NCBI GenBank assembly: GCA_048270185.1
Contig: JBLWTJ010000001.1
Span: forward strand, 64,001-128,000
Reading direction: 5' to 3'
From: Bacteriovoracaceae bacterium
GTDB taxonomy: Bacteria; Bdellovibrionota; Bacteriovoracia; Bacteriovoracales; Bacteriovoracaceae
DNA: 64,000 bases
Made by a program: the position numbers. Positions 39,001 to 42,000 of the stretch are shown one piece after another. Numbering within the stretch: the first letter of the stretch is position 1; every line of letters begins with the position of its first letter.

Positions 39001-42000
39001 GAAGCGTATGGGTAAATGCAAATTCCACCACGAGGTGTGAATTCGCCAATAACTTCGACATATTTTGGCTTCATTAGCTTTGTTAAGTCATCACAGATTT
39101 TTTGTACGCAATCTTCATGGAAGTCACCGTGATTTCTGAAGCTAAATAAATAAAGCTTTAATGACTTTGACTCGACCATCTTCTTATCAGCAATATAATT
39201 AATATAAATACGAGCAAAGTCAGGTTGTCCTGTCTTAGGGCATAGGGAAGTGAACTCTGTGCAAACAAATGTTGTCCAAGCATCACTATTTGGATTCTTA
39301 TTGTCAAAAGCTTCTAGGACTTCTGGCGCGTATGTATCTGGGTAATCAGTATTGGCCGAACCAAGGGCGAATGCAGTTAGCTCTTTTGTGTCGCGGCCTT
39401 TATTGGACTTAGTAGTCTTTGCTGATTTTGTTGTTTTTGCTTTCTTGATAGCTTTTTTCGATGATGACATTTATCGACTCTCTTGAATTATTTTGATAGG
39501 TTATATATGACTTAATTTAACACCGTCAAGGAACAATGGCAATGCGTCACGATCATTTAACATTCCCTGCGGGTAAGAAAGATGGCCACAAAGTAACAAA
39601 AGTAGTTTTGGTTCAACTTGGTTCTCCGAAATCTCCAGCAGTTAAAGATGTTAGAACATACTTAAAAGAATTCTTAGGCGATCCAAGAGTCGTCGATATC
39701 AATCCTCTCTTATGGAAGATTATTTTAAACCTCTTTGTCATTCCATTTAGGCCAAAGAGATCTGCTGCACTCTATAGTCGAATTTGGGAGGGGAGTGAAT
39801 TTCCTCTAACTCGTATTACAAGAGAGTTTACACTTAAGGTAAATGAATTAACTCCTGATCATATCGAAGTTGAACACGCCTTTTTACTATGTGAACCACG
39901 TGTTGCTGATGTCTATGCAAAGTGGGAGAAGGAGCTAGAAGAAAGACTTGAGCCAGCTCAAAAACTAATCGTCATCCCAATGTTTCCTCAGTACTCAGAG
40001 TCGACAATTGCAAGTGGTATTGACTTCTTTGGGAAACTTCTTGAGACTAAAGTTCGAATTCCAAATTTTGAAGTCATTACAAACTTTCATCGCCTTCAAT
40101 CTTTCATTGATAACTCAGTACGTATTATTAATGAGAAGATTGCGACTGAAGAAATTGATGAATTAGTCATCTCTTTTCATGGTATCCCAAAGAGGCGAGT
40201 GATTTATAAGAAAGACCCATACTATCAGCACTGCTTTGAAACTTTTCAATTCATCCTTGCTGGTATCAAGGGAATCACTTCAGATAAAGTTCATATGACT
40301 TTCCAGTCACGTTTTGGAAGTGAAGAATGGCTAACTCCATACACTGATGAATTTACTGTCAACCTCGCTAAAGATGGAGCAAAGAATATTGCGGTTTATT
40401 GTCCGGCCTTTGTTGCTGATTGCCTCGAGACAATTGATGAAATTGGAACTGAACTACAAGAAGAAGTTGAGGAGTATGGAACTAAGATACATGCAATCCC
40501 TTGCTTAAATGATGATGAGCAGTGGGCCAGTGGATTTGCAAATTATGTCGAGACTCTTTGTGATAACCCAAAAGAAGTTGAAAAAATTGAATACGAATTA
40601 CCAAAGGAAAAATACATGGATATGCCAAAGCAGACGATGGAGTCTGAACCTCTAAGTGATAATGCAAAGAAGTCACTAAAAATAGTCTTTCTAACTCTCT
40701 TTCTCGACTTAGTTGGATTCTCGATTATTTTCCCTTTATTTCCATCATTAGCTAAGTACTACTTAACTGTTGATGCTGATAATATTTTCTTAAAGGCAAT
40801 CTTTGGATCAATTGATACCTTAACGAGTGCAGGTGGCGCAGGAAGTTTCTCGGCCATCGTTCTCTTTGGTGGTGCGCTTGGTGCTCTTTATTCTTTATTA
40901 CAATTTATTGCTGCACCAATTTGGGGAACCATCTCAGATCGTATTGGACGTAAACCAGTTCTTTTAATTTCTGTTTTCGGACTCTTTATTAGTTATGTTA
41001 TGTGGGCCGTTGCTGGAAATTTCACAATCCTTATTCTTGCTCGCTTTATTGGCGGAATTATGGGGGGCAATATTTCAACAGCAACTGCAGTTGTAGCAGA
41101 TGTCACAACAAATAAGAACCGTTCAAAAGGGATGGCGACAATTGGTATTGCCTTTGCTCTTGGTTTCATTATTGGTCCAGCAATGGGGGGGATCTTATCT
41201 CTCTTTGATTTAACAAAGATGTATCCATCTCTTGCCTCAATTGGAATTAACCCATTCTCAATGGCCGCGATCGTAGCAGGGCTACTTTCTCTTTTTAACT
41301 TATATAATCTTTATAAGAAGTTTGATGAAACACTTCCTCCTGAAAAGCGTGGTCAGCACGAAACAGAAAGAAGTGCTAACCCTCTTAAGTTATTTAAGCC
41401 TCTGCCATATAAAGGCGTAAACTTAACTAATTTCGGTTACTTTTTATTTCTACTAGCATTTAGTGGCATGGAGTTTACGTTAACATTCCTTGCGGCCGAA
41501 AGACTTAATTATTCTTCGATGGATAATGCTTATATGTTTATCTTTATCGGTCTTGTTCTTGCTCTTGTACAAGGTGGCTACGTTAGAAGAAAAGCGCATA
41601 CAGTAGGTGAGAAGCGCATGGCCTTACAAGGTCTTGTGACGATTATTCCTGGACTTATTTTAATTGGAATGGCCTCTTCTTCATGGCTTGTTTATGCAGG
41701 ACTATTCTTCTTAGCAATCGGATCATCTCTTGTTATTCCATGTCTGACTTCACTTGTGTCGATGTACTCACCGGCACAAAGCCAAGGTCATGTGATTGGT
41801 GTTTTTAGATCTCTCGGTGCACTGGCCAGAGTATTTGGGCCAATTGTCGCTTCTCTTGTTTACTGGCGATACAACTCGGCAGCTCCTTATTACTTAGGGA
41901 GTGTCTTTTTAATAATACCAATTTTAATGATTGCGAGACTACCAAAGCCTCAAGAAATTAAAGGATAGGTCTGCTCCGGCTCCTGCCTCTCGCAGACATA

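What a model noticed while it worked through the whole genome (the two positions that open the first line are those of the whole stretch)
39542..41968. Sole ferrochelatase fused to a 12-TM MFS transporter of the SLC75A1 type
The only ferrochelatase of the genome (g00101, 808 aa) carries a C-terminal 12-TM major-facilitator domain that is 35% identical to mammalian SLC75A1. The fusion is conserved through Bacteriovoracales and suggests that the last step of haem synthesis is physically coupled to membrane transport (of porphyrin, iron or haem), and gives a functional lead for the little-studied animal transporter.
Evidence so far: Pfam Ferrochelatase 21-337, MFS_1 382-767; Swiss-Prot best hits SLC75A1 mouse/human/cow 35% over res. 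362-805, E 1e-72 to 3e-68; 1711 proteins match the junction region (res. 250-480); all 120 listed carry both Pfam domains (119 of them 777-824 aa) and the named ones are Halobacteriovorax, Bacteriovorax, Bdellovibrio-type or Oligoflexia records; all other haem genes (hemA, L, B, C, E, F/N, J/Y) are separate and no second ferrochelatase exists; bacterioferritin and Bfd genes lie next to it.
(Added by a program. Inside this text positions count along the whole contig: contig position 64,001 is position 1 of the stretch shown here. "Call 12" and the like, gene names such as g00115 and contig names such as C1 are that model's own, and its searches are not shown. The text may have been shortened before it was handed on; [...] marks where a part breaks off. 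The agent that wrote the report below was given it as the finding of a first reader that could run no searches.)

Follow-up and report, generated by a model that had tools for sequence, protein, structure and literature searches.

The report
Ferrochelatase fused to MFSD10-like transporter
A marine predatory bacterium makes its only haem-finishing enzyme as one protein with a complete membrane exporter related to the little-understood human carrier MFSD10, which hints, without proving, that the two jobs are linked.

Summary
Window 39542-41968 (+) is one open 808-aa gene. It has a ferrochelatase (FC) domain at residues 21-337, a ~40-residue linker and a 12-helix MFS domain whose best solved relative is human MFSD10/TETRAN. 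It is the only FC in a 95.9%-complete genome. The genome uses the protoporphyrin branch: HemJ and HemF are present and ChdC was not found.

- In the order, 123 of 139 FC matches lie in open frames of at least 687 aa.
- Ten genomes carry a plain FC.
- None of 85 FC-bearing genomes from other families of the phylum has a long frame.
- One genus dropped the FC domain but kept the transporter at the same locus.
- One tiny genome has the two halves as overlapping genes.

Free-standing orthologues (46-58% identical) occur in Hydrogenedentota, Verrucomicrobiota and other phyla. None of 41 such loci has an FC nearby. No conserved residue differs between the fused and free forms.

The transporter therefore has a job of its own. 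Whether it moves haem or porphyrin is plausible but unshown. This scan has met the same fusion twice before on other genomes. No paper describing it was found.

The parts
39542..41968 (+). Whole fusion gene: 808 aa plus stop. An alternative ATG at 39536 would give 810 aa.
   Evidence: ORF list and translation. The frame is open in one piece here, and 123 of 139 FC matches in the order lie in open frames of at least 687 aa.
39602..40552 (+). Ferrochelatase domain, residues 21-337, of the protoporphyrin (PpfC/HemH) type.
   Evidence: PF00762 E 2.5e-80. TIGR00109 scores 213 bits, above its cut-off. Human ferrochelatase chains match at E about 1e-15. HemJ and HemF are present and ChdC was not found.
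39689..39745 (+). Hydrophobic stretch, residues 50-68, inside the ferrochelatase domain. It is a candidate membrane-dipping lip.
   Evidence: It is the only Kyte-Doolittle 19-residue peak above 1.45 within residues 1-360. The 'lip' role is inferred from recalled knowledge of membrane-associated ferrochelatases.
40178..40180 (+). Codon of His213, the catalytic histidine.
   Evidence: Invariant in 35 fused proteins. It aligns with the His of the human 'HSLP' motif. I recall that residue as H263.
40427..40429 (+). Codon of Glu296, the catalytic glutamate.
   Evidence: Invariant in 35 fused proteins. It aligns with the Glu of the human 'IETL' motif. I recall that residue as E343.
40553..40675 (+). 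Interdomain linker, residues 338-378. It is charged, poorly conserved in sequence and constant in length.
   Evidence: Mean column identity is 0.32 over residues 341-360. The N323-to-D389 distance is 60-76 residues (median 66), and 26 of 35 proteins fall within 65-67.
40676..41935 (+). MFS domain with 12 predicted helices, residues 379-798, of the MFSD10/TETRAN-like DHA1 type.
   Evidence: PF07690 E 2.6e-50. Best PDB hit is 6s4m MFSD10 at E 1.4e-66. The hydropathy peaks read as 12 helices. The Tet(A) family model scores 171 bits, far below its cut-off of 475.
40925..40951 (+). MFS motif A in the TM2-TM3 loop, residues G462-R470.
   Evidence: G462, S465, D466, G469 and R470 are invariant in 35 fused proteins. 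The motif definition is recalled.
41162..41191 (+). MFS motif C, the 'antiporter motif' of TM5, residues G541-G550.
   Evidence: G541, F542, G545, P546 and G549 are invariant and G550 is at least 90% conserved. The link between motif C and drug/H+ antiporters is recalled.
42020..42047 (.). Hairpin with a 12-pair stem flanked by A and T runs, between the convergent fusion gene and bfr. It looks like a bidirectional terminator.
   Evidence: Terminator scan.
42053..42535 (-). Bacterioferritin (Ferritin-like), convergent with the fusion gene. It is a neighbour, not shown to be part of the system.
   Evidence: PF00210 E 6.7e-38. Present within the fetched 18 kb in 8 of 20 relatives.
42602..42814 (-). 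Bfd-like [2Fe-2S] protein. It is a neighbour, not shown to be part of the system.
   Evidence: PF04324 E 8.8e-09. Present in 9 of 20 relatives.
38901..39470 (-). queF, divergent upstream neighbour. It serves as a synteny marker for the locus.
   Evidence: PF14489. Adjacent in 16 of 20 relatives. It also lies next to the free-standing MFS of G009.

Best explanation
One polypeptide carries the cell's only protoporphyrin ferrochelatase on the cytoplasmic face of the inner membrane. A roughly 40-residue linker of fixed length ties it to the cytoplasmic N-terminus of a complete, working MFSD10-like DHA1 proton-antiport exporter.

Proposed mechanism:
1. Protoporphyrin IX made by the membrane enzyme HemJ reaches the ferrochelatase at the membrane surface.
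2. Iron is inserted.
3. The exporter next door takes surplus tetrapyrrole (haem or unmetallated porphyrin, both amphipathic dicarboxylate anions) and expels it to the periplasm in exchange for protons. This acts as an overflow valve placed at the point of synthesis.

Shown here:
- The single ORF.
- Intact catalytic and transport motifs.
- Sole-copy status.
- The protoporphyrin pathway.
- Fixed linker length.
- Confinement to one family.
- The transporter is kept when the two halves are separated.

Inferred:
- The topology.
- The export direction.
- That the exported substrate is a tetrapyrrole. This is the weakest step.
For: - The ORF and its domains are real.
- It is the sole FC. HemJ and HemF are present and ChdC was not found.
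- H213 and E296 are invariant and align with the human catalytic His and Glu.
- The TM1 Asp389, motif A and motif C are invariant. I recall motif C as the mark of H+ antiport exporters.
- The closest solved relative is MFSD10/TETRAN. The literature describes it as a DHA1-class carrier of organic anions such as indomethacin (passages read in PMC8154325, PMC5627054 and PMC9333335).
- Linker length is constrained while its sequence drifts.
- Within the family, the MFS orthologue was found only together with this FC type. It was not found in 6 unfused genomes (G085, G055, G066, G087, G149, G053).
- When the halves are separated, the MFS is kept. In G009 and G020 it stands alone at the queF locus at 66-67% identity and retains the pre-TM1 linker motif. 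In G001 the FC and MFS genes overlap by 4 bp in a 0.9-Mb genome.
- There is a precedent for FC-transporter assemblies. Mitochondrial FECH partners with mitoferrin, ABCB10 and ABCB7, and a hand-off to the MFS protein FLVCR1b has been speculated (passages in PMC7140478).
Against: - Nothing links this MFS family to tetrapyrroles apart from the fusion itself.
- None of 41 free-standing orthologue loci in other phyla has an FC in the up to 6 kb of flank held. Their recurrent neighbours are unrelated to haem.
- No conserved position differs between the 35 fused and 30 free forms, so the fused transporter is not visibly re-tooled.
- Genus g8 works with an unfused MFS and an unrelated FC type that is 28-29% identical. 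The covalent link is therefore dispensable.
- Cytochrome c maturation has its own haem exporter here, CcsA plus a ResB-like protein. No need for haem export is evident.
- The linker is flexible and poorly conserved in sequence.
- No conserved His is available in the MFS as an axial haem ligand.
- Structure and complex predictions could not be run, so no docking geometry is known.
Confidence: 0.4

Rival explanations
1. Tether only. The transporter keeps an ancestral job unrelated to haem (export of some other organic anion). The fusion merely stations the ferrochelatase at the membrane, near HemJ and membrane haem acceptors, and fixes 1:1 co-expression. It would be the functional equivalent of the single-helix CAB anchor of cyanobacterial and plant ferrochelatase.
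For: - Free orthologues in other phyla show no haem gene context.
- No position is fixed differently between fused and free forms, and 20 polar positions are conserved in both.
- The MFS persists without the FC domain in g8.
- The linker sequence is unconserved.
- Bacterial protoporphyrin ferrochelatases are membrane-associated (recalled).
- The Synechocystis FC carries a C-terminal CAB domain (PMC3563542, seen only as a search listing).
Against: - A 12-helix exporter is an extravagant anchor.
- The FC domain keeps its own hydrophobic stretch.
- The MFS was not found in the unfused genomes of the family that were searched. It does not look like a pre-existing housekeeping neighbour.
- After separation in G001 the two genes stay overlapped. 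A pure anchor that is no longer attached would not explain this.
Confidence: 0.33
2. Neutral accident. Two adjacent, co-transcribed genes lost the stop codon between them. The fusion then spread by descent without adaptive coupling.
For: - An adjacent, 4-bp-overlapping FC-MFS gene pair exists in G001. The AU test does not exclude that G001 lies outside the fused clade (p 0.185), so it could represent the pre-fusion state.
- Fission or loss has happened: g8, and L121 with an in-frame stop in the linker.
Against: - The fusion is retained in 123 of 139 FC-bearing genomes of the order.
- Linker length is constrained.
- Adjacency with overlap itself suggests co-function.
Confidence: 0.12
3. Supply coupling. 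The MFS imports a substrate for the enzyme (ferrous iron, or prey-derived porphyrin) or imports haem from which the ferrochelatase strips iron in reverse.
For: - The hosts are predators that grow inside prey.
- The mitochondrial precedent couples FECH to an iron importer (PMC7140478 passages).
- bfr and bfd lie next door here.
Against: - Motif C and the DHA1 family point to export (recalled).
- The de novo pathway is complete enough even in the 0.9-Mb G001 genome, which keeps hemB and hemE.
- No HemS/ChuX-type haem-utilisation protein was found.
- bfr/bfd linkage is seen in only 8 and 9 of 20 relatives and on the opposite strand.
- No good Fur-box match lies upstream; the best is 12 of 19.
Confidence: 0.07

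Closest known systems
Protoporphyrin ferrochelatase HemH/PpfC of Gram-negative bacteria and mitochondria (PF00762, TIGR00109; human FECH structures such as 2qd3)
   Same: The full-length catalytic domain is present, the catalytic His and Glu are conserved, the protoporphyrin-branch pathway context fits, and it is the sole copy.
   Different: It continues without a stop into a 12-helix transporter. It belongs to a divergent FC clade only 25-33% identical to the FCs of other Bdellovibrionota families. It lacks the C-terminal extension that in human FECH carries the [2Fe-2S] cluster (recalled); here the domain ends at about residue 337.
Human MFSD10 / TETRAN (TC 2.A.1.2.73, PDB 6S4M), DHA1 family
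   Same: It is the best solved relative over the whole MFS domain (E 1.4e-66), with 12 helices and motifs A and C. The long TM1-TM2 loop aligns (alignment).
   Different: MFSD10 stands alone. Its reported substrates are organic anions and NSAIDs, and no haem link is in print in the library searched. Bacterial free-standing orthologues are much closer, at 40-56% identity. Orthology to the animal protein was not tested by a tree.
Tet(A)/Tet(B)/Tet(C) tetracycline efflux pumps
   Same: It shares the DHA1 architecture and gives the best NCBIfam MFS match. I recall that Tet pumps export a planar metal-chelate complex by H+ antiport.
   Different: It scores 171 bits against a cut-off of 475, so it is not a Tet resistance protein.
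Cyanobacterial and plant ferrochelatase with a C-terminal CAB/Hlip helix
   Same: A ferrochelatase is made integral to the membrane by a C-terminal membrane domain (PMC3563542, search listing only).
   Different: There the anchor is a single pigment-binding helix. Here it is a complete secondary transporter.
Mitochondrial haem metabolon (FECH with mitoferrin-1, ABCB10, ABCB7; speculated FLVCR1b hand-off)
   Same: Ferrochelatase is physically associated with membrane transporters (passages in PMC7140478).
   Different: Those are non-covalent complexes with other transporter families. The review states that the FECH-MFS (FLVCR1b) interaction is not supported by affinity purification. Here the link is covalent.
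Other ferrochelatase fusions
   Same: The last enzyme is joined to a pathway partner. A HemY-like oxidase-FC fusion of 784 aa (P0265) was seen here. I recall HemH-HemQ fusions in Actinobacteria.
   Different: In those cases the partner is another pathway enzyme, not a transporter.

Membership tests
Protoporphyrin ferrochelatase (PpfC/HemH) | Matches the family models above the curated cut-offs | tested here: met
   PF00762 scores 270 bits against a cut-off of 27. TIGR00109 scores 213 bits against 124.6.
Protoporphyrin ferrochelatase (PpfC/HemH) | Catalytic His and Glu present | tested here: met
   H213 and E296 are invariant in 35 fused proteins. They align with the human His and Glu of the HSLP and IETL motifs. 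The human residue numbers are recalled.
Protoporphyrin ferrochelatase (PpfC/HemH) | Protoporphyrin-dependent rather than coproporphyrin-dependent pathway context | tested here: met
   HemJ and HemF are present. ChdC/HemQ was not found in a 95.9%-complete genome. Coproporphyrin ferrochelatase structures match far more weakly than human FECH, about 2e-7 against 1.5e-15.
Protoporphyrin ferrochelatase (PpfC/HemH) | Iron insertion into protoporphyrin IX | not testable with these tools
   Needs an enzyme assay or complementation of a hemH mutant.
MFS, DHA1 family (TC 2.A.1.2), MFSD10-like subfamily | MFS fold with 12 helices | tested here: met
   PF07690 covers residues 382-767. The hydropathy peaks in 381-798 read as 12 helices. 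The alignment to 6s4m runs end to end.
MFS, DHA1 family (TC 2.A.1.2), MFSD10-like subfamily | Motif A (TM2-3 loop) and motif C (TM5, antiporter motif) | tested here: met
   G462/S465/D466/G469/R470 and G541/G545/P546/G549 are invariant. The motif definitions are recalled.
MFS, DHA1 family (TC 2.A.1.2), MFSD10-like subfamily | Closer to MFSD10 than to other solved MFS proteins | tested here: met
   6s4m scores E 1.4e-66. The next best hit, NorA, scores 6e-16.
MFS, DHA1 family (TC 2.A.1.2), MFSD10-like subfamily | Orthology with animal MFSD10 (same clade in a tree with MFSD9, MFSD14 and bacterial DHA1) | not tested
   No animal sequences were available as ids for a tree. Only the best-hit evidence exists.
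MFS, DHA1 family (TC 2.A.1.2), MFSD10-like subfamily | Proton-coupled export of an organic anion | not testable with these tools
   Needs a transport assay.
Tet(A)/(B)/(C) tetracycline efflux proteins | Score above the NCBIfam equivalog cut-off | tested here: not met
   171 bits against a cut-off of 475.
Dedicated haem or porphyrin transporter | Independent genomic association of the transporter family with haem genes outside the fusion | tested here: not met
   None of 41 free-standing orthologue loci has an FC within the flank held. Recurrent neighbours are ftsH, folP and glmM, or a cytidylyltransferase, PgsA and PgpA. Of 24 such genomes, 22 have an FC elsewhere, which is uninformative without a control.
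Membrane-anchored ferrochelatase of the CAB-domain type | Single C-terminal CAB/Hlip helix | tested here: not met
   The C-terminal part is a 12-helix MFS.

The most novel reading that the evidence does not exclude
The whole MFSD10-like family, from Hydrogenedentota and Verrucomicrobiota to animals, consists of tetrapyrrole (haem or porphyrin) exporters. On this reading the Bacteriovoracaceae fusion is the Rosetta stone that names the substrate of orphan human MFSD10, and it would be the first case of the final haem-synthesis enzyme hard-wired to a haem or porphyrin efflux pump. The lack of any residue fixed differently between fused and free forms fits a substrate shared across the family.
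Probability: 0.17. Interest if true: 0.8.

Novelty: new variant of a known kind. Interest (0 to 1): 0.5.

Why it matters
How newly made haem, which is toxic and sticky, leaves ferrochelatase is an open question in both bacteria and mitochondria. Reviews speculate about a direct hand-off to an MFS exporter but have no evidence for it (PMC7140478 passages).

This fusion offers a natural construct in which the last enzyme and an exporter-type MFS are one chain. It is kept in 123 of 139 FC-bearing genomes sampled in the order (49 of 57 genera have an FC match). Natural 'controls' exist in which the halves are separated. The idea can therefore be tested with ordinary genetics and transport assays.

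If the transporter does carry tetrapyrroles, that would also give a first physiological substrate candidate for human MFSD10, whose structure is solved (6S4M, listed as unpublished in the 2021 review PMC8154325) but whose role is unknown. If it does not, the fusion is still a new way of anchoring ferrochelatase to the membrane.

Tried and rejected
- **Structure prediction.** I retried only after the stated wait each time.
- **Complex prediction.** No docking geometry was obtained.
- **RNA evidence.** No RNA holder was listed.
- **Salvage-only idea.** I tested whether FC plus MFS might survive as a porphyrin-salvage pair in a reduced genome. This is rejected, because the 0.9-Mb G001 genome keeps hemB and hemE.
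- **Cytochrome c maturation.** The idea that the MFS supplies haem for this is weakened. CcsA and a ResB-like gene are present and adjacent, and CcmE was not found.
- **Iron regulation or an operon with bfr/bfd.**
  - No Fur-box match better than 12 of 19 lies upstream; 171 such matches occur in the window.
  - bfr and bfd are convergent, behind a bidirectional terminator.
  - They are present in only 8 and 9 of 20 relatives.
- **Internal start for a free MFS.** A Met is common about 25 residues before TM1. No Shine-Dalgarno-like sequence precedes it here, so I did not pursue this.
- **Neofunctionalisation scan.** No position is at least 90% fixed in the fused forms and at least 80% fixed to another residue in the free forms.
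- **Is G001's split state a secondary fission?** The ML tree nests its FC inside the fused clade (99/94 with L033). The AU test does not reject the alternative (p 0.185), and its MFS sits on a very long branch. The direction is left open.
- **Literature.** Seven of the ten full-text searches bore on the fusion or on MFSD10. None gave a paper describing a ferrochelatase-MFS fusion or an MFSD10-haem link. Searches returned no papers. For the others I judged only the titles and abstract starts of the listed papers, plus passages of PMC7689651, which proved irrelevant. Subscription journals are not covered.
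Full report
**1. Observation**

Window 39542-41968 (+) is a single open frame of 808 codons; an ATG six bases upstream would give 810.

- Pfam finds Ferrochelatase at residues 21-337 (E 2.5e-80) and MFS_1 at 382-767 (E 2.6e-50).
- NCBIfam's hemH equivalog is passed, at 213 bits against a cut-off of 124.6. The best transporter model, the Tet(A)/(B)/(C) family, reaches only 171 of the 475 bits it requires.
- Among solved structures, the C-terminal half matches MFSD10 (6s4m) end to end (E 1.4e-66; next is NorA at 6e-16). 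The N-terminal half matches human ferrochelatase chains at about 1e-15.
All 120 carry both Pfam domains, 119 are 777-824 aa long and one is 501 aa.

The gene is real and its coordinates are right.

The name 'SLC75A1' occurs in one paper of the library, and only in a gene list. That it is MFSD10 is therefore my inference from the matching range and score.

**2. The two halves look functional**

I aligned 35 fused proteins, 42-74% identical to the query (A1).

- In the enzyme half, H213, E296 and D293 are invariant. H213 and E296 align with the His of the human 'HSLP' motif and the Glu of 'IETL'. I recall these as H263 and E343.
- In the MFS half, the following are invariant: Asp389 in TM1, motif A (G462...R470), motif C (G541...G549), and several buried Arg and Glu residues.
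- The hydropathy peaks in residues 381-798 read as twelve helices. A single hydrophobic stretch lies at residues 50-68 of the enzyme.
- MFS N-termini are cytoplasmic (general knowledge), so the enzyme should sit on the cytoplasmic face.
- The linker is poorly conserved in sequence (mean column identity 0.32 over residues 341-360). Its length is held: N323 to D389 spans 60-76 residues, and 26 of 35 proteins fall within 65-67.

**3. Genome context**

- The genome (3.35 Mb, 95.9% complete) has one ferrochelatase match and no paralogue of the MFS domain.
- These are present as separate genes: HemJ, HemF, a weak HemY-like gene, hemB, hemE, a hemA-like gene and hemC. ChdC was not found. This is the protoporphyrin branch. 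I did not check hemL or hemN.
- CcsA lies next to a ResB-like gene, and CcmE was not found. Cytochrome c maturation therefore has its own haem-export route.
- bfr and bfd do lie downstream. They are on the other strand, behind a bidirectional terminator hairpin at 42020-42047.
- I fetched 18-kb regions from 20 relatives.
  - queF is the divergent upstream neighbour in 16.
  - bfr is present in 8.
  - bfd is present in 9.
  - bfr and bfd are always on the opposite strand.
- No convincing Fur box lies upstream; the best match is 12 of 19.

**4. Distribution**

- Order level. In 151 genomes of the order, 139 have a ferrochelatase match.
  - 123 of these matches lie in open frames of at least 687 aa.
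  - Ten are plain ferrochelatases internal to their contigs: G009, G020, G085, G055, G066, G102, G087, G149, G053 and G001.
  - Six are short frames at or near contig ends, or fragments. For one of them (G079) the MFS part lies at the end of another contig.
- Phylum level. In a sample of 121 genomes, all 85 FC-bearing genomes outside family f1 have open frames of 438 aa or less.
  - The fusion therefore belongs to one family, named Bacteriovoracaceae or Halobacteriovoraceae in record titles.
  - 'Bdellovibrio sp.' labels on some MAG proteins do not reflect the Bdellovibrio-type families sampled.
- Whole library. At 50% clustering, about ten fused representatives (734-829 aa) were found. The next hits are free MFS proteins at 40-56% identity.
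- Protein Atlas. It holds one fused cluster of 89 members.

**5. Natural experiments inside the family**

(a) *Genus g8 (G009, G020).*
- The transporter stands alone (482 aa, 66-67% identical) beside queF, in the same synteny as here. It still carries the conserved pre-TM1 linker motif.
- In the MFS tree it nests deep inside the otherwise fused clade (clade SH-aLRT 100).
- Its ferrochelatase sits in a hemY-hemH cluster and is 28-29% identical to the fused type. It groups with the FCs of another family of the phylum (98/93).
- This reads as loss of the enzyme domain after a different ferrochelatase was available. The transporter was kept, so it is not merely an anchor.

(b) *G001, a 0.9-Mb genome of the sister family.*
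- A 330-aa ferrochelatase of the fused type (44% identical) and a 393-aa MFS overlap by 4 bp.
- The best solved relative of that MFS is again MFSD10 (3e-25). It is very divergent, 27-31% identical to both fused and free members.
- The ML tree nests its FC inside the fused clade. An AU test does not reject placing it outside (p 0.185). It may be a fission or the pre-fusion operon.
- The genome keeps hemB and hemE, so this is not a salvage remnant.

(c) *L121, a MAG.* It has an in-frame TAA in the linker and an ATG nine bases later.

(d) *Unfused genera with the same FC type.* G085 and G055 keep the FC gene (39-40% identical). In G085 it sits among hemB, hemC and hemE. No MFS orthologue was found with this query in G085, G055, G066, G087, G149 or G053. 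In this family, the transporter was found only where the fusion or its remnants are.

**6. The transporter family outside the fusion**

- A scan of species-representative genomes returned 80 loci: 38 fused, 1 split and 41 free-standing. The free-standing ones come from Hydrogenedentota, Nitrospirales, Verrucomicrobiota/Opitutales, Planctomycetota and Rhodothermota records.
- None of the 41 free-standing loci has a ferrochelatase in the flank held, which is up to 6 kb and shorter on some contigs.
- Recurrent neighbours among the 37 loci that could be parsed are unrelated to haem:
  - FtsH in 7 loci, with folP and glmM alongside in 3.
  - A cytidylyltransferase-like gene directly upstream in 11 loci, with PgsA in 5 and PgpA in 4.
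- Of 24 such genomes searched, 22 have a separate ferrochelatase. Without a control this says little.
- In the MFS tree, the sister of the Bacteriovoracaceae clade is the Hydrogenedentota/Nitrospirales/Rhodothermota group (SH-aLRT 92).
- I compared 35 fused domains with 30 free orthologues. No position is fixed to different residues, and 20 polar or aromatic positions are conserved in both. The fused transporter has therefore not been visibly re-tooled.

**7. Interpretation**

I take the following as established:
- The protein is real and bifunctional.
- It carries an active-looking, sole protoporphyrin ferrochelatase on the cytoplasmic side.
- It carries an exporter-type MFS that has a function of its own.
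- The fusion is confined to one family and has occasionally been reversed.

The nature of the coupling is not established. My estimates are:

| Reading | Probability |
|---|---|
| Tethered exporter removes tetrapyrrole (surplus haem or porphyrin) at its point of synthesis | 0.40 |
| Membrane tether and co-expression only; the transporter's substrate is unrelated | 0.33 |
| Neutral fusion of an operon pair | 0.12 |
| Import of iron, porphyrin or haem | 0.07 |

I rank tetrapyrrole export first for five reasons:
- Enzyme-transporter fusions usually join partners that share a substrate.
- MFSD10 is reported to handle amphipathic organic anions.
- Motif C points to efflux.
- In this family the MFS was found only with this FC type or its remnants.
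- The two halves stay overlapped in G001.

The tether-only reading is nearly as likely. It is favoured by the silent gene context of the free orthologues and by the absence of fusion-specific residues.

**8. Comparison with what is known, and novelty**

- Ferrochelatase with a membrane anchor is known in cyanobacteria and plants (CAB domain; listing).
- Ferrochelatase in non-covalent complexes with transporters is known in mitochondria. A hand-off to an MFS haem exporter has been speculated there but is not supported (passages in PMC7140478).
- Fusions to other pathway enzymes exist. One HemY-like-FC fusion was seen here.
- A covalent ferrochelatase-MFS fusion did not turn up in the full-text searches. 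Annotation pipelines simply call it 'ferrochelatase'.
- This scan has reported the same fusion twice before on other genomes, with the same reading (e1-7732006 and e1-919769).
  - the family-level limits of the fusion;
  - the reversal in g8;
  - the split pair in G001;
  - the free orthologues and their gene context;
  - the lack of fusion-specific residues.

I class it as a new variant of a known kind and give it moderate interest.

**9. Limits**

- No structure or complex prediction could be run.
- No RNA runs were listed.
- The trees are single-gene trees with some long branches.
- The genome samples are samples of their groups, not full surveys.
- Motif definitions, human residue numbers and the properties of Tet pumps are recalled, not tested here.

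Noticed in passing
P0265 (representative protein, 784 aa; not in the window): This is a different ferrochelatase fusion. An N-terminal flavin amine-oxidase domain, resembling HemY/protoporphyrinogen oxidase, is joined to a C-terminal ferrochelatase (residues 440-757). It branches at the base of the FC clade that contains the MFS-fused type.
   Followed up: partly
L017 (G001:C2:142123-146244): A genome of only about 0.9 Mb, scored 96% complete, sits in the sister family of the order. It keeps hemB, hemE and an overlapping ferrochelatase-MFS gene pair. It looks like a strongly reduced relative of the predators.
   Followed up: partly
window 34417-35211 (-): A 264-aa ORF whose C-terminal half is a long run of Lys/Ala-rich repeats of the KKVAKKTAKK type, reminiscent of histone H1-like DNA-binding tails.
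   Followed up: no
window 42911-43765 (-): A 284-aa ORF with no Pfam family. It is kept in synteny next to bfd and the M14 peptidase in many relatives, at only 22-27% identity.
   Followed up: no
G000:C1:805376-806056 (outside the window): The hemC match lies in a 514-aa open frame, long enough for a hemC-hemD fusion. The hemA-like gene (C1:796586) and hemE (C1:809845) lie nearby, so most haem genes cluster about 700 kb away from the ferrochelatase fusion.
   Followed up: no
L086, L087, L100, L104, L109, L118, L126, L129, L132, L136, L143: These 11 loci come mainly from Opitutales, Coraliomargaritaceae and Puniceicoccaceae records; one is titled Yoonia. In all of them the free MFSD10-like gene lies directly downstream of a 161-aa cytidylyltransferase-like gene, often overlapping it. 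PgsA is close by in 5 loci and PgpA in 4. This may hint at a phospholipid-related context for the family.
   Followed up: partly
L121 5950-5964: One Bacteriovoracaceae MAG has an in-frame TAA inside the linker, followed nine bases later by an ATG. This splits the fusion into a 402-aa ferrochelatase ORF and a 444-aa MFS ORF. It could be a real fission or a sequencing error.
   Followed up: partly
window 45055-47885 (+): Agmatinase-family and arginine decarboxylase genes overlap by 4 bp, forming a polyamine synthesis pair. An M14 carboxypeptidase lies upstream.
   Followed up: no
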